Part shown: positions 16,756 through 41,584 of the stretch, piece by piece
Position numbering within the stretch: position 1 is the stretch's first letter
Layout: each line of letters begins with the position of its first letter
Assembly (NCBI GenBank): GCA_000165425.1
Contig: CT868208.1
Span: 434,001-498,000 of the forward strand
Length of the DNA stretch: 64,000 bases
Direction: 5' to 3'
Source of the DNA: Paramecium tetraurelia
Taxonomy: Eukaryota
Translations under genes and position numbers: made by a program
The notes under the pieces: model-generated
What the model was told of the DNA's origin: nothing
The model's input: only the letters and a program-made list of their open reading frames with translations
Databases searched by the model: none

Positions 16756-18031
16756 ATGAATAAAAGTTTTAAAAGTTACCCTTCCTTTGCTGCCTTCTAG
16801 ATAGAGTAAGCAAAATCAAATAGGTAATTTTGATAAGTATAACAGTTTGAAAAAAGATTACTCTACGTTTATCATAACTCAGTTTATGATTTGACGGATT
16901 TCATAGATAAACATCCTGGAGGAAGAGGTCCTTTAAACACATACAAAGGTAGAGATTTAGAAAATGTATATCATAATGTTTAGATTATAGATATTTTTCA
17001 ATCCAGCAATACATAAACATAGCTAATCAGCATTTAATACATTTGAGAGGTATAAATGTGGAATAATTGAGAACAAACCAATTTAATAATAACAACAATC
17101 CATGTTAGGCTCAAAATCAACAAATGTTTCGCAATCCATTATAACAAATAAGTCTCAAAAAAATACACCTTAAAAAAATGATTCTGATAAAAAACTTCAA
17201 TAAAAATCATAATCTGTTAAACCTAAGGCTCAACAACAAGAAGATAGACTAAATCAATCTATGAGTAAATTAAATCAATCAATGACTAGCAGTGTTAAAT
17301 CTTAATTTTTACTCATACCAACATAATAAGAATTACTGATGATACAAAAACAGAAATAGCAGAAACTAATTAAATAGTGGAAATAATCTGAAGTTGAAGA
17401 GTTAAAAAGACAATAAGCCGAAGTTGAAAAATTAAGAGTTGAAAAAAATGAAGATCGAAAGACTTAAAGTGAAATTTTAGTTTCTACTCGTAAAAAATCT
17501 ACAAACCCTTATTATTCAGCATGGCTTGAAAAACAGCAACAGCAGGAATAATAACAGAAAGAAGAATCCAAGATTTCTAACATTCTACCTGCCTATCTAA
17601 CATAATCTAGTGATTAACAAGTAGAAGATCCAAGATTTCAACCATTTACTTTTGATGCAGAAAAAAAGAGGCAACATGACTCAAAGTTATCTTAATCTGT
17701 CATCGTATAAAAAACTTAGAAGAAAGTTAATCCTTATTACGAAGAATGGAAGAGAAAGTAAAGCTTAAAAAGTTAAGAATCCCAAAAGGAATTAACTTTT
17801 TAAGAGAACAATCAATTATCAAAACAGCAATCTATTATTTTAGAAGAGAATGAATCTTAGATTTCTGGATAGCCTTCTTCCATAAATAATAGTTTCCAAA
17901 GATCATATTCAATGAGTTAGAGAACAATCGTATAAGAAAATCCTTAATTGAGTGTACCTATTTTTGCTCCGAAGTTTATCTCTCCTATCAAGGCCAAATT
18001 CGTAATTAGCTCTAGCATGTAAAAGCTATGA
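16756..18031 (+). CDS. Cytochrome b5-like heme-binding domain protein with long Gln-rich tail
   Basis: VYDLTDFIDKHPGG..YKGRDL..HKHSQSA, with both candidate heme His present. Two introns; no C-terminal TM anchor. Confidence 0.85.
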
Positions 18032-18111
18032 AGTAGATGAATGTGGGTATATAAAATTTTTTTTAACTACTTTTTATAATTTTAAGTTTATAACAATTAA
18101 TATCTAATCCA

Positions 18112-19330
18112 ATGAATAATCCCATTTTTAATACTGCAAGGATATTTTTGCAAAACAAATATCACTTTCCCACTCCCTTGGAATTATTCAAACACCTTAT
18201 CACTAATTCAAGTTATTTTCAGACATTGTCATTGAAAAATGACTCCAATGATGAGCTTTTATATAAACTGATTTTCATTGCAGGATTTCATGAAAGAAGA
18301 AATTGCGGAAGTATTGTTAAGGAATTTTCTTAAAATTGCTTGATTTAAATTAGAGATCGAATAGAGGACATGTCTCTGGATATACCTACTTTAATTTAAG
18401 CTTTTTTATCTATGAGCAATGTTTTGCTAGATGATGAAAAAATTGTTTCAACTATTTTGAAATAATTGAAAGACCAAGAAGATTAAATCACTCTTAAATA
18501 GTTTCATTCTATCTAGCATTGCTTATACAAATTGGGGAGACAGAATAATTATTGGTCATCTAAAGCTTGTGATGCTATGACCAATAATTTAACTACAATT
18601 ATAATCCAAGACTATGTATAATACTTGCATATTGCTAGCAATTTATATTAATTTGGTTTGTTTTAAGAAGAACATCTCATTAAACTTTTGGATATTTTAT
18701 ATTACAAACTTGGAAAATAATAAAAACATATATACTCTTCTAAATTTACATTCTAATTTGCCTAAATGATGTTTAACATCTATCCTGAAATTATCAATTA
18801 ACCATTAAATTAACTCTCTTGTAAGCCGCATACTCCTTTTGAAATGTATTTCTAGTTTCTGAAAAGGGATTATTAAATTTGTAGATAAATCCTTCAAAGA
18901 AAAAACCTTGGAGTTACAATAGATTATTTTGAGAATGAAAATTTTCCATTCCTATTAAGATTAAGATAAGATTCTATTAGTCGAACCTAAACTCTTTTAG
19001 AAACTGAAATTATTGAGATTCTAAACAAATTGTAATTAAAATTCCTTAAATTTTAAAAAGTTCTTATTTATGACGTTGATTTTAAAGTGATGGACAATTA
19101 TGCAATTAATTGTAATGGGCCACTACATTTTATTTCAACTTTGGATGGAAAAATAAAATAAAAATCATTCAACACAATGATGCAATATAGGTATTGTCAT
19201 ACATAAATAAAGACATTTGAAAGCTCTGGAAACTCCAAATGTCATAGATTTTGATTTTTTCGATTGGAAACAAGAAGACTCTATGGAATTCAAAATATCA
19301 AAAATAAAGACACTCTTGAATTTGATTTGA
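18112..19330 (+). CDS. RAP-domain (FASTK-like) helical protein, probably organellar
   Basis: C-terminal YDVDF..AINCNGPLHF..QYRHLKAL..VIDFDFFDW is a RAP-domain pattern. One intron near the 3' end. Confidence 0.7.
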
Positions 19331-19408
19331 TATCAATGAAGAGAATATAAATATACATTTATAAATCAGTATTTAGTTTTATAAAAGTAAAATAACAACG
19401 TGTTTATA

Positions 19409-20223
19409 AAATAATTATTAATTAAATAAATATTTAGATCAAATATAATGTGAATCAAAAGTAATGGAATTATTATGATTGGGATTATGTTGTGATTTAT
19501 TATGATTTGGATGATAATTAGATTGATTAGAGGATTAAAATAATCTGTGAAAATATAGAAAATAAGTTACTTTTAATATGATATTTTAGGTTCAATAGAG
19601 ATTTTGGTAGGAATATATTTGGTTAGAATAGAACTCTTTCTTTATGCATTTAATATTTTTTTTCTGATTAATTCACTAGTGGCAGTTTATTTTTTTGGAA
19701 TAGTTTTATCTGGTATTTTAACAATAATAGATTTTATTGATTTCTTTAATGTAATTTAATGTAAAGGTGTAGGTATTTTAAATGGAGGATGAAAGAAATA
19801 TTAAGCTGAATTAATAAAAGATTATTATTATTATTGTTATTATTATTATTATTATGAACTTTTTATTATTTTACCTGAAAATGTTCTAATCAATCTTCTA
19901 TTTGTTGAAATACTTACTTTTCCATCATCTTCCATTTATAATTTTAATATTGAATAAGATTATTTTAAATCATAATCATTGCTTACAGAAACATTTACCA
20001 TCTTTTTATTCTTTCCTCTATTCATTATTATTTATTTTGGACTACTTTATATACTTAAACTAGATTAACTTCTATATTTCTAAAATAAAACTGGATCCAT
20101 TTATCAACTATTCTTTATTATTTTTTTCTTTATTTATATTTAATCAATTTATTTTTTTATTATCATCCTCCCTATCCAACATCCACTAATCTATCTACTA
20201 CTTTCTATTTCTATTCTCAAAAT
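19409..20223. repeat. Left arm of perfect 815-bp inverted repeat
   Basis: Reverse complement of 24488-25302, checked block by block with no mismatch or indel found. Confidence 0.97.
19439..20100 (-). CDS. Orphan basic Gln-rich protein, copy A (inside inverted repeat)
   Basis: MDPVLFQKYRSQSSLS..polyQ..HPPFKIPTP..; 26-nt intron; ends DSHYI-TGA. Identical to 24611-25272. Confidence 0.7.
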
Positions 20224-20551
20224 TTTTATGTATTCCCATAAGTATATCGGAATATTTAAAGCTCGAAATTACTTTAAATTAAGGGCAATTATATTATTTA
20301 TAATGAATATAATATTTTTATTCTTTACGCTAAATTATTAGGATAATTTATTTATAAACAGTAATAGCAAAATTTTGTTAGTGAGAATATTACTAATATT
20401 ATTAAGAATAGAACTTATAAAGCCATCTTAAAAGGAATAGTAAAAAATCTATTCTCTATTAAGATTTAAATAACGTATTTTATCTTAATAAATATTCGAG
20501 ATTTCATGGTTGATAAATATTTAATATGCTTATATATTTATTTATTCTTGT

Positions 20552-21120
20552 TCATCTGAAGACTTCGTTTAAGTATTTCTTCTCATCAAACAATTTTTCA
20601 ATAGATAATTCTGGAATCTCCACTTCTTCCCATTTACCTTCTCTATCAAAAAGGTAAAATTCATTTTGTTAATTGTTGTAATAAATCATATCGTAGTCAA
20701 CTCGAATAGTGTGCTCAAATAAATTAAATCTAGCACTTTGATTATAATCACCAAAAGTAGCAGGGATAATGTTTTAAGGAACAACCTATCATAATGATTT
20801 AATCAAACATATTTAGTATAAATTCCTGAATGAGCCAAGCATTTCAATTACAATAGATTAGATTCTTTAGTATATTACATTCCAACAACAAAATGTTTGC
20901 CATGATCAAATAAATACCTCTCAAGAAAGATGGGAACTAATTAAAAGTATTCTTTGAAAGGTACATAAGATTATGAAAAATTATTTAATTTTTAATCTAG
21001 CAATGTGTTTATAATAATAATACCTGAAATTGATGACTTATATAAAGGAATCAATGTATTTTGATTAATAGAGGAAATGCTGACTTTATTAATGAAATGA
21101 TATCTGAACAAGGATTTCAT
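20552..21120 (-). CDS. Hypothetical protein, possibly mitochondrial
   Basis: MKSLFRYHF.. basic N-terminus; two tiny introns; ..EFYLFDREGKW..NEVFR-TGA. Confidence 0.7.
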
Positions 21121-21157
21121 TATTTAATATTAATAATATAAATATTTATAATTCTTA

Positions 21158-24098
21158 TCAATACTTTATATTGATTTGGAAATGTAGTCTATTTATTTAT
21201 TATTTTAAGTGTTCTTCCAAAGATCCGCACTCTCCATTTAAAATCTCTTAATAAATATCTAGAGCTTATTAGAGTTACCCAAGCTTTTCATTTGTTTCTG
21301 CTAATTATATTTCAAATTAATTAATTTCCTCAGTAAGCATATCTTAAATCTTAGCCCAGTTTATGGCCTTTTGTAATAATTCTTTAGCTGTTAAATATTC
21401 TTCGATATTATAAAACTCTTTGCTTAAGCGAACCATTAAATTTACTTATCCAGCCTAATTACATACTATAGATTAAATACATCAGTTTTATTCATCTCTT
21501 TCAAGGCTGAATTAGCATCTCTGAACCTTTTACCATCCTTTAAACAATTTAAAGCAATATATCCCCAGACCGTATCATTTGTAGGTTCATAAAGATTAGC
21601 CATTCTTAAGGCATCTTCTGCCTCTTTATACTTTCCGCATTCATGAGAAGATATACCCAATCCCATCCAAGACAATGATGAATTATCCTTAATTTAACAA
21701 GCTTTTGTGAATACTGCTCTAGCATTCCCAAATTATTTTTCATTTATATAAATTGAACCCAACATCAAATACATACTAAAATAAATAATCGGATCCTCTC
21801 TTAGTTAGGGATTTGGTAATACGAATTTAATCTATTTTTCACATTTATCAAAATCTTGACTCTTAAACAATACTTTTATGTATTCAATACGTATATCCAA
21901 GTCTTCAGGATTAAATTCTTTAAATATTATGTGATTATACCTAGCATATTTTCAATTAAATCCAAGCACTGAGCATATTCAGACTTATATAAGTATATCT
22001 TAGCTCTTAACATAGTAATTTTATTATGAGATTGATCATTTAAAAGACTCAATGATTATTCAGCCAACTCAAAAAGGCAAGCATTCTCAAAGAATTCCAC
22101 CAGTTACAATATCATCTGATCCTATTATTATTCAGTCAATTATGGTTAATTATGAGCATTCTCCCAAGCAATTCTTTATTATTCTCTTTGTTCTAAAATT
22201 GCTTTATCTTTTTCAGGTTTATCTGGAACTGGAATAGGAATCTTAATCCAAGGAAGATCAAATAGCTAAGGATCTTCATGATGCATTCCTTCTTATTTAA
22301 TTAGATTCAGTTGTCTAAGCCATATTCTCTCTGCTTTTTGCATCATGAAATCTGCTAATTCTTAATCTTATTATTAAATAATAAGATTGTAAAAAAGATG
22401 ATAAATTAGATTATTTGGATCTTAATCTAATAATAATTCCAAAATAAATTTAGCTTCTGAAATCTTTTCTCTTTTTTAATATAAACCAGCTAATAGTAAT
22501 TAATTTTATTGATTATGACCATCAAAAGATAATGCTTATTCTACAAGTGTTACAGCCTATTCTATTTTTGCACATCTAAGACAGAAGAATGCAAACTTCA
22601 TTAAAGCATCCTGATCTTTTGGGTTAATTATATTTAAATCTCTTAAATGTTTTTCTACCTCTTCAGTTCTATTTAATATCTCATATTCTTAACATAATCT
22701 CTCAAGTTATTGTTTTCTAGTTTCAATTTGTTTTTTCTACTATGATTTCCTAAAATCCAACATCTTAGATAGTTTTTTTCTTTGAAAGTAAATGAGAGAA
22801 ATCCTCTTACAATGCTTCTTTATTCTCTCTCACCATATTAATTAAGACTTATCTCATTTCCTCCATTAAAAACACATAAAGTTCAGAATAAAATTAATCA
22901 CTTTATGTTGTTGAAATGCCTGTTACTGAACCAGACTTATTAAACTTATCTCTACATAACTTTACAATACTCTTTTTTATTCTTTCCTTTAAAATTTTGT
23001 ATTTTCCTGATATATTAAAATCATATAAAAAATGTTCCTTTCTCTATTAAAGAGACTATTTCTTATGTGTCATTAACATATTACTTTATTTTTCATTTTG
23101 ATATTTGTTTAGGTCTTTCGAAAACATATTAGAGTATTCCATAGCTAATGATTCTATTATGACCTAAAGATCACTCCTCAACTCTTCAATACATTACTAA
23201 CTTAATGGGATTGGTCGAGGTTCCGGAGCCAAAGGGATCAAGTCTTAAAAGGTAGGTTATGGTTCAAACCTTACAGGGGTTATTGGTTGAGATAAATTAA
23301 TCTTTAGATACATATACATTGTTTCTATATTAGGCTTTGGTGTTTCTGGAGGAGATTGCTCATCCATATACTAAGTAAACTTTATTCTTTAAATGGTTTC
23401 AGTTTATCCTGGAGTTTAAAATGGCAAATAATCAATCCAGGCTTTAAATACAATGATGTTTAAGTCGTTGATATTTAAAGTCTTTGGTTTAGTTTTTTTA
23501 AGTTTTGCTACTTCTTCATCTCCTGGAATGGGAGATTTATACAAAAATATCCATTCCCCTTAATCAACTCTCACTCTCTCTTATTGTATCACTAGCTTTT
23601 ATCCAGTTAATTCTTAAGAAAACTAATTTTGATCAAACTTAATGCTAGGACTTTTGAATTGATCTTCTTAAGTTTTATAAAATTATTCCTCTTCTGTCAA
23701 AGCATCCCATTCTGCCTTAAGTCTTTATTATTCTTCAAGTTCCATTTATTCTCTGAGAAGCTTCTCTTTCTCCTCCTCTGGTGTTAATTTAGGAGGCTAA
23801 GAGTATTAATTCATATTACTTCAATTTTAGCATCTTTTTTTGGTTGCTTTTTTGCTTTCTTTGCAGCTTCTGCTTCTTCAATTTCTTTTTTCTCCTTCTC
23901 AGTTAGCTCTCTTGGTAATACTTTTCCACCTGACAATCTTTAATCAAGAAATGCAACTGAGTATTAAAATAAATTTGGATTTGACTCATCAGTTACTCTC
24001 CATTCCTCAGGAAACGAAAATACACCATTTAGAACAAAATTCATCTTGATATTTGTTTTTCTTGCTGGCAATCTTTCAAGAAGTTTTAACTCATTCAT
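21158..24098 (-). CDS. CFAP70: CFAP70/TTC18-like TPR axonemal protein
   Basis: FLYDFNISGKYKILKERIKKSIVKLCRDKF resembles the conserved CFAP70 block. C-terminal TPRs (SWMGLGISSHECGKYKEAEDALRMANLYEPTNDTVWGY). Confidence 0.78.
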
Positions 24099-24487
24099 AA
24101 TTATTATTATAAATAAAGAAAAAATTTAAATAAGAAAATTGTTTAATCCTTTATTTGTTATAATCCATACTCAAAGAATTTATTTGCTAAATAATTTGGT
24201 TTAGTAGAATACTACAATTTAGTAAATAAGTAAGTTAGTTTTAATAAAATTTATGAAATGAAAAATGAAAATTTCTATTGTAAATAAAATCTATAATATA
24301 ATAATACATATATATTTTGATTGAAATTAACTCAATAAAATCGAAAGTGGAGGTCTAAAACAAAGACCAAGAGAATAATTTTTGAGATAATCAAAAAAAA
24401 GATGATTATATTAATTTATTTCTACCTCAAAATAATTGAAGTATTTTCTTAATGAAACTTCCTTCAATTATTATCTTAAATTTTTGG

Positions 24488-25302
24488 ATTTTGAGAATAG
24501 AAATAGAAAGTAGTAGATAGATTAGTGGATGTTGGATAGGGAGGATGATAATAAAAAAATAAATTGATTAAATATAAATAAAGAAAAAAATAATAAAGAA
24601 TAGTTGATAAATGGATCCAGTTTTATTTTAGAAATATAGAAGTTAATCTAGTTTAAGTATATAAAGTAGTCCAAAATAAATAATAATGAATAGAGGAAAG
24701 AATAAAAAGATGGTAAATGTTTCTGTAAGCAATGATTATGATTTAAAATAATCTTATTCAATATTAAAATTATAAATGGAAGATGATGGAAAAGTAAGTA
24801 TTTCAACAAATAGAAGATTGATTAGAACATTTTCAGGTAAAATAATAAAAAGTTCATAATAATAATAATAATAACAATAATAATAATAATCTTTTATTAA
24901 TTCAGCTTAATATTTCTTTCATCCTCCATTTAAAATACCTACACCTTTACATTAAATTACATTAAAGAAATCAATAAAATCTATTATTGTTAAAATACCA
25001 GATAAAACTATTCCAAAAAAATAAACTGCCACTAGTGAATTAATCAGAAAAAAAATATTAAATGCATAAAGAAAGAGTTCTATTCTAACCAAATATATTC
25101 CTACCAAAATCTCTATTGAACCTAAAATATCATATTAAAAGTAACTTATTTTCTATATTTTCACAGATTATTTTAATCCTCTAATCAATCTAATTATCAT
25201 CCAAATCATAATAAATCACAACATAATCCCAATCATAATAATTCCATTACTTTTGATTCACATTATATTTGATCTAAATATTTATTTAATTAATAATTAT
25301 TT
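24488..25302. repeat. Right arm of perfect 815-bp inverted repeat
   Basis: Exact reverse complement of 19409-20223. Paired coordinates sum to 44711 at both ends. Confidence 0.97.
24611..25272 (+). CDS. Orphan basic Gln-rich protein, copy B (inside inverted repeat)
   Basis: ATG at 24611, open frame with a (TAA)n poly-Gln, intron 25141-25166 (GTAAC..CAG), TGA at 25270-25272. Confidence 0.7.
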
Positions 25303-25436: not shown

Positions 25437-26495
25437 ATGATTATAAATAAATTTTTTTCAGCATTTTCACAACTCATTAGCAAGGCTTCCAATGCAGTCA
25501 AGTAGCCTTAATTAAAACAAAATTTAATTCAACCTGAACCTATGAGATTAAGTAAATACCTGGCTTAAACAAGTGTATGCTCAAGAAGAGAAGCAGAAAA
25601 AATGATAGAATCTGGAATGATATTGGTTGATGGGAAAAAAGTCGAAAGCAATATACCAGTTACTTCTGAAAATAAAATATAAGTATTCACAAAAAATGGA
25701 GAGAAGATGCCAACTAAGCAGTCAACTGTAATCAGCCTTTATTATTAAAGAAAGTTTGGATTTTCTACAAACCTGTTGGCATGATATGCTCTCATAATGA
25801 CCCTTTCAAGAGACCATCATTTTATGATTTTGCAAAACTTAGATTAAAAACAGATTAGCATATTATTTCTGTGGGAAGATTAGATTTTAATTCTGAAGGA
25901 TTGATTGTAGTTACAAACGATGGAGAACTGGCTAGATGCATGGAATTACCTGAAACAAAGTTACAACGTATATATAGAGTCAGAGTTTATGGTACTTTTA
26001 CAGAAGAGAAATTGAAAAAGATAAGAAATGGTATCACAATAGCTGGTGTAAATTATGGTCCATATTGGGTTAACGTTGAGAACAGGTACAAAAGCAATTA
26101 AATTTAGGTAGTCAAGAAACACTTGGTTAATTATGAGATTAGAATAAGGTAAAAATAGAGAAATCAGAAAAGTAATGTAGAAATTTGATTTGAGAGTTAA
26201 TAGACTGATTAGACAAAGTTATGGTCCTTACAAGCTCATGGGTTTGAAACCAGGTGACTTTTATGAAGCTTAAATTGAACCTGAAATAAAGAGAAAACTC
26301 TACCTTCACACTAGGAAAAAGTTATAGAATGTATAGGAATAGATTTAATTGGAATAATCAAAACTTAATATTAAAGCCTTAGATGAGCAAGGCAAGAATG
26401 ATAAGTTGCTTGAGAAATAAGAAAATGATAAAATTGATAAGAAGAATTTAATTGTAAATTAATCTAAGAAAGTTAATTCAAAAAAAACCGTTTGA
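25437..26495 (+). CDS. RsuA/RluB-family pseudouridine synthase with S4 domain
   Basis: MRLSKYLAQTSVCSRREAE (S4), YKPVG, VGRLDFNSEGLIVVTNDGELA (catalytic GRLD), GKNREIRKV. Tiny introns. Confidence 0.92.
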
Positions 26496-31634: not shown

Positions 31635-31657
31635 ATATATTATTAAACAATTATTGA

Positions 31658-31704
31658 ATTACGTGTCCATATTATTATTAAAATATTATTGTATTACGTG
31701 TCCA
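31658..31704 (+). promoter_or_regulatory. Doubled 12-bp motif ATTACGTGTCCA upstream of SRP54
   Basis: Exact copies at 31658-31669 and 31693-31704 in a 105-bp AT-rich spacer; the second ends 35 bp before the ATG. Confidence 0.5.
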
Positions 31705-31739
31705 GATAATTATTTTTTTAATAATAATAATAAATATAT

Positions 31740-39550: not shown

Positions 39551-39694
39551 GATCATCATTATATATTATTATGTTTAATTGAGATGTGTTGTGTTCATTC
39601 CGACAGAGTAGAATGCTCTATAAATCTATAATATAATTTATAAGCTCATTAGTATTCATTGCCAAATTTTAAATATTTTTCAAAAAAATACATA

Positions 39695-40847
39695 ATGAAA
39701 GGAGGTAAATAATAAAAGAACAAATCAATCTGGGATCAAGTCAAAAACGAAGAAAAGGACTTCTACTTCAACTTTTTGGCTAAAAAATACAGGAATCTCT
39801 AAAAGAAACTCAAGGATATTGCTGACCTAGAGGAATTACAAAAAACTAAAGAATTGAAGCAAGAATAGATCTAGAAGATCCAAGGCAAAGATGAAAACAA
39901 TGAAAGAATTAAAGAATTAGAAGGTACACTCTCGAATTGGCTCAACGCTAAGAAAGAAGCCGAACAATAAGGATCCATAATCACTATTGAAGCATATATT
40001 ATAATTCTTTAAAATCTCGCCTAAGATCCATAATTGGTTGCTTTGTTAGCCCAAGACCATGAATCCACACATGAATTAGCTAAAAAATTGTAATCTAAAA
40101 TAGTTGGATAAGGCAAAACAGATTAACCATGGAAAGGATTGAAAGTATTTGAATTACTACTAATATTTAGTTAAATGTTCAAGTCTAAGAATAAGTCCAA
40201 GAACCTAAACAAACCTAAGATGTAACAGAAACAGAACCTATCCAATAATAAGTTCAATAAGTTATACAACAATAAGAATAACATACCCATTCAAAATAAA
40301 AACCTTCAGAGGAAGTCTAACATTAATCCAAATAGCCTGAATAGCCTGAAGTCTAAGAATCTTAAGAACAACAATAATTCAATGAATAACAACCATCAAA
40401 TGAACAACCCTAAGAAGATACCTAAAATTAAGACTAAGAACCCAAGCAAGATCAATAACCATAATAAAGACATCATCAACATCATGACGATAGAAGAAAC
40501 TACAAAAAGAATTACAATAACAATAATTATGATAGAAGAAACAACTACGATAGACCATACAGAGGAAACAAATAACATTATCAAAATAGAGATAGAAATT
40601 ATCAATAGGAATAAATCTGGGAAGAAAAGGTTGACAAATAGGCCCCTTAAAATTAAGAAGACTAATAACAAGAAGAAGATGACTACATTACCGTTAGAAG
40701 CAAGTATCATTTACCTTTATGCCATCTAGAAAACCATAGAAACCATAGAGAGGAGGATAAAGAAATTATGACAATAGAAATAATAATAAAAACTATGAAG
40801 GCAACCAATAAAGAAGATAGAAAAATAATGAGGAAGGTGATTAATGA
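39695..40847 (+). CDS. Coiled-coil/low-complexity protein with Caprin/PYM-like N-terminal hairpin
   Basis: KKYRNLQKKLKDIADLEELQKTKELKQEQIQKI, then Q/E/P-rich and R/N/Y/G-rich regions. One intron near 40144. Confidence 0.7.
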
Positions 40848-41584
40848 GAGTATTTAAAAATATATATATATTTATGTATCAGTATCTATCATTTAATATT
40901 ATCCTTATCTAATACATTATTAAATGAAAAGATAGAATTGTAAACGCATTTATTTTTTAACTTATAAATTGTTGATTCCAATTTACTTTTTAGATAAATC
41001 CTCAAAAGTTACTAGCATTCATTTTTATAAAATATATACATCTTTTAATTAATGTAAATTCTATTCTTTATATTCAGCGATTATATATTATATTATCTTA
41101 TGATAATGTACATTTTTCAATAAAATATATTGGTATGAATTGATTAAATTTGGATACTCATAAGTAAGGTTTTCAATTTAAATTATTTATTACTAGGTTT
41201 GCTTACTATCAAGTAATTATAATCAAAAAATTCTTTAAATAATTTCAATTACCATATCATGATAATATATTATTCACTTATATACTGAAATTCTACAAGA
41301 ATTTTTAATATGAATTAAGATTCATGAAAAGATTTATTTAAATATTCATGCTTCCAGTGTATTGATGTTTGTTATAATATTCGAAAGGGGGATAACTTAT
41401 AAATCTGTTCAACCTTTGTAAATCATTCTCAGCGATTAACATATCTTTTTCAACATCTATTATTATATTTTCAATAATTTCTGACATGTCCCAAATCAAA
41501 TTAAATATTAAATTTTAATGTTTTTGTATTTCGATTTATATTGTGAAGTGAAAGCGAAAATAGAAATTTTATTATATTAACAAA

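What the first reader, a model, noticed from the sequence alone, without database searches (positions are those of the whole stretch)
19409..25302. Perfect 815-bp inverted duplication of a whole gene, bracketing a 4.26-kb two-gene cassette (candidate invertible segment or fresh inversion)
Seen: 19409-20223 is the exact reverse complement of 24488-25302, including non-coding flanks, the intron, homopolymers and the TAA tract. Each arm holds a complete gene with 123 bp upstream and 30 bp downstream, and both copies point outward. Between them (20224-24487) lie the CFAP70-like gene and a small hypothetical gene. No transposase and no clear target-site duplication. Established: whole-genome-duplication paralogs in Paramecium lie on different chromosomes and have diverged introns, so this is a different kind of event; inversions made by staggered breaks leave inverted duplications at breakpoints; long inverted repeats allow flip-flop recombination. 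Inference: (a) a very recent staggered-break inversion, (b) a segment present in both orientations among polyploid macronuclear copies and homogenised by gene conversion, (c) a foldback-type element with gene-sized arms, or (d) an assembly artefact.
Basis: partly seen in the sequence, partly recalled or inferred. Interest (0 to 1): 0.85.

Follow-up and report, generated by a model that had tools for sequence, protein, structure and literature searches.

The report
Identical inverted gene pair in Paramecium
Two letter-perfect, back-to-back copies of one small gene really do bracket two other genes in Paramecium tetraurelia, and a distant sister species seems to carry identical copies around the same gene, so this is probably an old duplication kept uniform by copying between the arms, not a fresh accident or an assembly error.

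Summary
The 815-bp arms are exact reverse complements and real. In 4 of 4 laid DNA runs from 4 studies, contigs break exactly at the arm ends and arm depth is 1.7-2.0 times that of neighbours. Deposited models match P. tetraurelia scaffold_30. The spacer holds a CFAP70 homolog and a homolog of complex I subunit NDUPH2.

New evidence: in P. sonneborni (median dS 1.0 away) one identical protein, 88% like the arm protein, carries accessions on both sides of CFAP70 on one scaffold (CAD8062775-777 and 781, against 780). Identity within species and 12% difference between them points to an old duplication homogenised by germline arm-to-arm gene conversion, like primate X palindromes, rather than a fresh inversion.

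Against: the sonneborni evidence is accession order only, its copies lie on the paralogon lacking the left neighbour, and no ortholog was found in three other aurelia species. Flip-flop is untested because no long reads were offered. No transposase, target duplication or recombinase was found.

The parts
19409..20223 (-). Left arm, 815 nt, exact reverse complement of the right arm
   Evidence: contig breaks at 19409/19438 and 20194, depth about 2x
19439..20100 (-). Arm gene, left copy: 211 codons from the first ATG, one 26-nt intron (19545-19570). Deposited model CAK75680 starts at the second Met (186 aa). Basic (pI 10.3), Q/N-rich, no Pfam family, mostly disordered in a low-confidence model
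20224..24487 (.). Single-copy spacer, 4,264 nt, the segment that a crossover between the arms would invert
20553..21120 (-). Homolog of Tetrahymena mitochondrial complex I subunit NDUPH2 (start and introns inferred from the sequence)
   Evidence: 7tgh_P2, E 2.8e-10; frames; ohnolog contigs with 36 differences in 409 nt
21158..24098 (-). CFAP70-like TPR protein gene (955 aa in sister species). Split into two deposited models by one extra base near 22725 that all four runs lack
   Evidence: table 4; 9ijj_k, E 3.1e-26, octaurelia ortholog as query
24488..25302 (+). Right arm, 815 nt
   Evidence: contig from 23943 runs into it
24611..25272 (+). Arm gene, right copy (intron 25141-25166); deposited model CAK75684
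18112..19330 (+). Left neighbour outside the arm: RAP-domain protein (CAK75679), used as synteny anchor
25437..26495 (+). Right neighbour outside the arm: S4-domain RNA pseudouridine synthase

Best explanation
A real, gene-sized inverted repeat (a mini-palindrome with a 4.26-kb spacer). It arose once by local inverted duplication of a small gene, probably before subclades A and B of the P. aurelia complex split, and is kept identical by occasional germline arm-to-arm gene conversion. The arms lie 4.3 kb apart, can pair when a break is repaired, and overwrite each other. The homogenised tract matches the selected unit: gene plus 123 nt upstream and 30 nt downstream. A crossover in the same pairing would invert NDUPH2 and CFAP70 without cutting any gene, so the spacer may have toggled over evolutionary time, as a neutral by-product and not as a switch. 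The likely gain is restored gene dose, since no ohnolog of the arm gene was seen. Shown: two identical copies; purifying-type conservation of the protein; identical-protein models on both sides of CFAP70 in P. sonneborni. Inferred: shared origin, conversion, dosage, toggling.
For: (1) Two copies are real in 4 of 4 runs. (2) P. sonneborni: one 164-aa sequence carries CAD8062775, 776, 777 and 781, and CFAP70 is CAD8062780, all on one 814,876-nt scaffold. This mirrors tetraurelia 680 / 682-683 / 684. (3) The protein is 88% identical between the species, like its neighbours (RAP gene 86.9%, CFAP70 89-93%). That fits vertical descent, not recent transfer. Median dS between the species is 1.007 (PMC8354472 S6 Table), and they sit in the two deepest subclades. 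(4) Zero differences in about 390 non-coding and third-position sites bound the last homogenisation at under 0.8% of that divergence. (5) Recent single-gene duplications are rare in aurelia, median 28 per genome, and favour genes that lost their ohnolog (PMC10195154 section 12; sonneborni was left out of that count). Two independent duplications of the same gene around the same neighbour are therefore unlikely a priori. (6) With a mutation rate near 2e-11 (PMC11334263 passage), a conversion rate of only about 0.5-1e-8 per site per division suffices, in a genome with 420 cM/Mb (PMC13085455 abstract and section 9).
Against: (1) For P. sonneborni I saw only accession order and protein identity, with no strand, no DNA and no arm boundaries. 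Three consecutive models on one side differ from tetraurelia. They could be a tandem expansion or gap-filling stutter, since the assembly used Newbler at 99% identity plus GapCloser, which can also erase small differences between copies. (2) The sonneborni copies sit on the CFAP70 paralogon that lacks the RAP-gene ortholog, which lies on the other scaffold (CAD8066734 beside 8066732). The tree cannot say which paralogon is orthologous, because the two sonneborni CFAP70 copies group together at 99/100 and 98/100. (3) No arm-gene ortholog was returned for P. octaurelia, primaurelia or pentaurelia (0 of 3; 2 hits among 114 candidates of 96-308 aa), although octaurelia is the sister species (dS 0.214). 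(4) No decayed homology beyond the arms: none of 12 flank tests beat shuffles, best 46 of 500 reaching the score. Sharp ends fit a young duplication equally well.
Confidence: 0.6

Rival explanations
1. A young duplication private to P. tetraurelia, made by a staggered-break inversion of the spacer or by inverted copy-and-insert repair. The arms are identical because little time has passed. The sonneborni copies are a separate expansion of a duplication-prone gene.
For: Sharp ends with no residual flank similarity. No ortholog found in three subclade-A species. The sonneborni copies differ in number and paralogon. With the low mutation rate, identity can last up to about 9e7 divisions without conversion. 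Inverted duplications of unique sequence mark 17 of 29 Drosophila inversion breakpoints (PMC1885836 abstract).
Against: It needs the same gene to be copied to the far side of the same CFAP70 cassette twice, in genomes with a median of 28 recent single-gene duplications among about 40,000 genes. It also does not explain why not even one copy was found in octaurelia. Whether the spacer is inverted against an outgroup could not be read from accessions.
Confidence: 0.25
2. An actively flipping segment: recombination between the arms among the many macronuclear copies, or during macronuclear development, keeps both orientations at visible frequency, as in plastid inversion isomers.
For: Perfect 815-nt arms 4.3 kb apart are a substrate for homologous recombination. 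A flip breaks no gene. The germline recombination rate is extreme.
Against: No direct evidence. All 24 runs offered were short-word contigs that cannot phase across 815 nt. No recombinase or transposase family in 45 window ORFs plus 10 local proteins. Somatic events are not inherited and cannot explain identity over evolutionary time. The conversion rate needed is far too low to imply frequent flipping.
Confidence: 0.09
3. A foldback or other mobile element with gene-sized terminal inverted repeats that captured NDUPH2 and CFAP70.
For: Terminal inverted-repeat geometry. The arm protein has no known family and a patchy distribution.
Against: No target-site duplication: the left flank ends TTTATA and the right flank begins ATGTTG. 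Depth is 1.7-2.0x, so there are no further near-identical copies. No transposase. The spacer genes have ohnologs or orthologs in place.
Confidence: 0.04
4. Assembly artefact: one real copy placed twice.
For: Perfect identity. The reference does carry at least one error nearby, at 22725.
Against: 4 of 4 runs from 4 studies branch exactly at both arm ends, three of the four junctions are covered by contigs, and arm depth is doubled.
Confidence: 0.02

Closest known systems
Primate X-chromosome palindromes, including P24 around FLNA-EMD (PMC8327919 and PMC3961182, passages read)
   Same: Inverted gene-bearing arms around a unique spacer with its own genes. Divergence between arms within a species is lower than between species, which is read as ongoing gene conversion. 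Spacer inversions are common and mostly harmless.
   Different: Arms here are 815 nt, one gene unit, against large (many-kb; size recalled) arms. The setting is a ciliate germline chromosome, not a sex chromosome. The age, if real, is far greater (dS about 1). Orthology of the arms between species and spacer inversion are not shown here.
Staggered-break inversions of Drosophila (Ranz et al. 2007, PMC1885836, abstract read)
   Same: Inverted duplication of a unique protein-coding gene at both ends of a segment, with no repeats or transposons at the ends.
   Different: There the outgroup has one copy and the segment is inverted. Here a distant species appears to have copies on both sides, and inversion against an outgroup is untested.
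[quoted passage not shown]
   Same: Same organisms; ectopic homogenisation of duplicates is known in them.
   Different: Ohnologs lie on different chromosomes and here differ by about 9% in DNA (NDUPH2 homolog). This pair is local, inverted and 100% identical, non-coding parts included.
Plastid inverted repeat with flip-flop isomers (search listing only; mechanism recalled)
   Same: Inverted repeats in a highly polyploid genome, homogenised and able to invert the region between them.
   Different: Plastid repeats are tens of kb and both isomers are abundant (recalled). Isomers were not tested here, and the macronucleus is not inherited.

Membership tests
Gene-bearing palindrome kept by arm-to-arm conversion (primate X/Y type) | Inverted arms over 99% identical around a unique spacer | tested here: met
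   815/815 in the assembly; 400 of 815 bases confirmed as one contig at doubled depth in 4 of 4 runs
Gene-bearing palindrome kept by arm-to-arm conversion (primate X/Y type) | Arms more alike within a species than between species | tested here: inconclusive
   Protein level only: identical within each of two species, 88% between; sonneborni DNA not seen and possibly collapsed
Gene-bearing palindrome kept by arm-to-arm conversion (primate X/Y type) | Orthologous inverted arms in other species | tested here: inconclusive
   Accession order suggests it in 1 of 4 other aurelia species; none found in 3 of 4; strands unknown
Gene-bearing palindrome kept by arm-to-arm conversion (primate X/Y type) | Spacer inversions within or between species | not testable with these tools
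   No long reads offered; accession steps could not be calibrated
Gene-bearing palindrome kept by arm-to-arm conversion (primate X/Y type) | Large, many-kb arms (recalled) | tested here: not met
   815 nt; so it works like these palindromes but is not filed as one of them
Staggered-break inversion | Inverted duplicate of unique sequence at both ends | tested here: met
Staggered-break inversion | Outgroup has one copy | tested here: inconclusive
   sonneborni has at least four models, three others none found
Staggered-break inversion | Inner segment inverted against the outgroup | not testable with these tools
   RAP-to-CFAP70 accession gaps are 3 (tetraurelia), 2, 6, 6 and 12, but step sizes are unknown
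Foldback / TIR transposon | Target-site duplication | tested here: not met
   flanks
Foldback / TIR transposon | Transposase in or near the element | tested here: not met
   no such Pfam family in 45 ORFs and 10 local proteins; ORFs were hand-picked, not every frame
Foldback / TIR transposon | Dispersed near-identical copies | tested here: not met
   arm depth 1.67-2.0x; germline-limited copies not excluded
Site-specific invertible switch (Hin/Fim/Flp type; features recalled) | Dedicated recombinase nearby | tested here: not met
Site-specific invertible switch (Hin/Fim/Flp type; features recalled) | Inversion changes a promoter-gene link or a coding end | tested here: not met
   each arm carries the whole gene with its flanks, so a flip rebuilds both copies unchanged
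WGD ohnolog pair | Copies on different chromosomes with diverged silent sites | tested here: not met
   same scaffold, 4.3 kb apart, no differences

The most novel reading that the evidence does not exclude
A gene-sized palindrome has been kept letter-perfect by conversion since before the P. aurelia radiation. It was carried through the last genome doubling and kept on different paralogons in the two subclades. It also inverts the NDUPH2-CFAP70 cassette often enough that both orientations coexist among strains or among macronuclear copies of one cell: a recombinase-free flip-flop in a ciliate nuclear genome.
Probability: 0.12. Interest if true: 0.78.

Novelty: new member of a known kind. Interest (0 to 1): 0.5.

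Why it matters
Local single-gene duplications are rare in Paramecium, and a 2023 review says almost nothing is known of the rate and pattern of gene conversion within its chromosomes (PMC11334263 passage). If the sonneborni reading holds, this is a compact case of concerted evolution over dS about 1, and it gives a lower bound on the ectopic conversion rate (about 0.5-1e-8 per site per division). It can be tested with data that already exist: Nanopore reads of unrearranged P. tetraurelia DNA and a strain 51 x 32 cross (PMC13085455 sections 25 and 9). It also warns that 'recent duplication' counts based on low dS may include old, converted pairs. The mechanism itself is known from other organisms, and no functional switch is expected.

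Tried and rejected
Rfam and tRNA scans: 0 hits. Function of the arm protein: Pfam 0 families for both species; PDB profile search gave 2 weak hits at E 0.12 and 0.89, the first on poly-Q; ESM Atlas gave no usable hit twice; the AlphaFold2 model had mean pLDDT 52 and pTM 0.21, so I ran no fold search. Function stays unassigned. Metagenome scans: arm protein 0 of 592 stretches; CFAP70 alignment 1 of 167, a 50%-identical 1,979-nt contig with no flank. Pseudouridine synthase as a right-side anchor: no named aurelia representative among the best 150; the four I looked up were unnamed singletons. Calibrating accession steps with intronless neighbours: of 16 window ORFs looked up, 2 were in the collection, both singletons, so orientation in other species stayed open. 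Decayed homology beyond the arms: not above shuffles. Two joints (19422 to 21121 in 1 run; 19974 to 24093 in 4 runs) have only 20-21 letters on the short side in AT-rich DNA; I treated them as chance or ohnolog matches and did not test them. The sigma-70 promoter scan does not apply to a eukaryote and was ignored. The Caceres 2007 FLNA-EMD paper was not held; it is cited only through other papers' passages. Literature: searches listed no paper whose title or abstract start describes this locus, and six gene identifiers gave 0 papers. Subscription journals, newer-annotation identifiers and the paper lists behind Table S4 of PMC10195154 (counts only) were not covered, so the pair may be among the counted duplications.
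Full report
Observation. The window holds one long repeat. 19409-20223 is the exact reverse complement of 24488-25302, 815 of 815 bases, with 4,264 bases between. Read with the ciliate code, each arm holds a whole gene of 211 codons with one 26-nt intron, 123 nt upstream and 30 nt downstream, both copies pointing outward. The protein matches P. tetraurelia scaffold_30 models CAK75680 and CAK75684, one identical 186-aa sequence that starts at the second Met. Gene order is: RAP-domain gene (+), arm gene (-), NDUPH2 homolog (-), CFAP70 homolog (-), arm gene (+), pseudouridine synthase (+).

Is it real? Of 24 runs listed, 20 from 12 studies hold 0.95-0.96 of the sampled words. I laid 4 of them, from 4 studies, on 17000-24515. 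In all four the left-flank contig ends at 19438, the arm contig starts at exactly 19409 and has no other letters over 19409-19808, the spacer contig starts at 20194, and a 575-nt contig from 23943 runs into the right arm. These are the 30-base overlaps of a de Bruijn graph that forks at both ends of a repeat. Arm depth is 1.80, 1.67, 2.00 and 1.97 times the median of six neighbouring contigs. So there are two copies, not one and not many. Limits: contig depth is a rough measure; only 400 of 815 bases are shown identical in reads; the fourth junction lay outside the stretch; contigs cannot phase across an arm, so orientation is untested. All four runs also lack one base near 22725, which explains why CFAP70 is deposited as two models.

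How old is it? The arm protein had one other hit among 114 candidates: P. sonneborni, 164 aa, 88% identical. That single sequence carries four accessions, CAD8062775, 776, 777 and 781 (at most four are shown). A CFAP70 ortholog is CAD8062780, on the same 814,876-nt scaffold. If accessions follow gene order, as they do for tetraurelia here (679 to 684 match the window), identical copies flank CFAP70 in a second species. P. sonneborni lies across the deepest split of the aurelia complex (PMC8354472 passages), at median dS 1.007 (its S6 Table). The 88% identity resembles that of the neighbours (RAP gene 86.9%, CFAP70 89-93%), so recent transfer is unlikely. Identity within species and 12% difference between them is the signature of concerted evolution used for primate X palindromes (PMC8327919 passages). 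Zero differences over about 390 non-coding and third-position sites put the last homogenisation under 0.8% of the tetraurelia-sonneborni divergence and under 3.6% of the tetraurelia-octaurelia divergence.

What speaks against that. I saw no sonneborni DNA or strands. Its three consecutive models may be a tandem expansion or a gap-filling artefact, and its assembly method can merge copies over 99% alike (section 27). Its copies lie on the CFAP70 paralogon without the RAP ortholog, which sits two accessions from the other CFAP70 copy. The CFAP70 tree (11 rows, built twice with either half of the window model) groups the two sonneborni copies together, so paralogon orthology is unresolved; this agrees with the open question of one or two genome doublings (PMC10195154 passages). 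No ortholog was returned for P. octaurelia, primaurelia or pentaurelia, assembled by the same method (only 96-308 aa searched). Loss, gaps or odd models could explain this, and I could not tell which. The accession gaps between the RAP gene and CFAP70 in those species are 12, 6 and 6; numbering may be interleaved between submissions (recalled) and my calibration failed. The flanks show no decayed homology, which fits a young event too.

Mechanism. Most likely (0.6), a small gene that had no surviving ohnolog was copied in reverse to the far side of its neighbours. No second contig at 90% or more covers 19510-19760 and no paralog was found. Such genes are twice as likely to be re-duplicated. 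Since then the two arms, 4.3 kb apart, have served now and then as each other's repair template in the germline. With a mutation rate near 2e-11 per site per division, a conversion rate of about 0.5-1e-8 keeps them identical, which is modest for a genome with 420 cM/Mb. The conversion must be micronuclear, because the macronucleus is not passed on. A crossover would invert the spacer and rebuild both copies unchanged, so inversion should be neutral. There is no recombinase or transposase family in 45 window ORFs and 10 local proteins and no target duplication. Shown: two identical copies, gene content, sonneborni accession pattern. Inferred: shared ancestry, conversion, dosage benefit, toggling. 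The arm protein's function is unknown: basic, low-complexity and mostly disordered in a poor model.

Rivals. A young, tetraurelia-only duplication by staggered-break inversion or copy-and-insert, with a separate expansion in sonneborni (0.25). Frequent somatic flip-flop (0.09), a mobile element (0.04), an artefact (0.02).

Comparison and novelty. It works like the gene-bearing palindromes of primate sex chromosomes and the FLNA-EMD segment, whose orientation recurs, but its arms are one gene long, and cross-species orthology and inversion are not shown, so I do not file it as one of them. Gene conversion among aurelia ohnologs is known. Seven searches listed no paper describing this locus, judged from titles and abstract starts. 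The scan's own notes had nothing on this genome or sequence; a word search gave eight notes on other genomes, none used. Papers seen: PMC8354472 (passages, section 27, S6 Table, supplement search); PMC10195154 (passages, section 12, supplement search); PMC13085455 (abstract, sections 9 and 25, passages); PMC11334263, PMC3464196, PMC3961182 and PMC8327919 (passages); PMC1885836 (abstract).

Verdict. A real feature and a new member of a known kind. It is more interesting than a fresh duplication if the sonneborni reading holds, and existing data can decide it. Interest 0.5.

Noticed in passing
window 22725: One base of the reference is absent in 4 of 4 runs at full depth. This is a likely sequencing error that splits the CFAP70 gene into two deposited models (450 and 464 aa, against 955 aa in sister species).
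   Followed up: yes
window 20553-21120: The 'hypothetical' spacer gene is a homolog of Tetrahymena complex I subunit NDUPH2. Its ohnolog is seen in reads with 36 differences in 409 nt.
   Followed up: partly
P. sonneborni CAD8062775-777: Three consecutive accessions with an identical arm protein on one side of CFAP70: a tandem triplication or an assembly stutter.
   Followed up: no
P0022 and P0024: The two P. sonneborni CFAP70 copies group with each other, not with subclade-A paralogons, as expected from conversion or a separate genome doubling.
   Followed up: partly
window 18112-19330: The RAP-domain gene has one close ortholog per aurelia species and an older paralog at 44-46% in four other species, not returned for tetraurelia.
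   Followed up: no
window 19974 and 24093: A joint with a 21-letter short side appears in all four runs at single-copy depth. It is probably a chance or ohnolog match in AT-rich DNA.
   Followed up: no
window 31638-31714: 35-nt tandem repeat, 2.2 copies, 88% matches, just upstream of the SRP54 gene.
   Followed up: no
window 39551-41100: One gene reads in two overlapping long frames with a switch near 40150-40170, which suggests another single-base error or an unspliced intron.
   Followed up: no
window 1391-63998: Ordinary neighbours by Pfam: ribosomal L32, a protein kinase, an ankyrin protein, a WD40 protein, clathrin heavy chain, SRP54, importin beta, an aldo-keto reductase and an anoctamin.
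   Followed up: no
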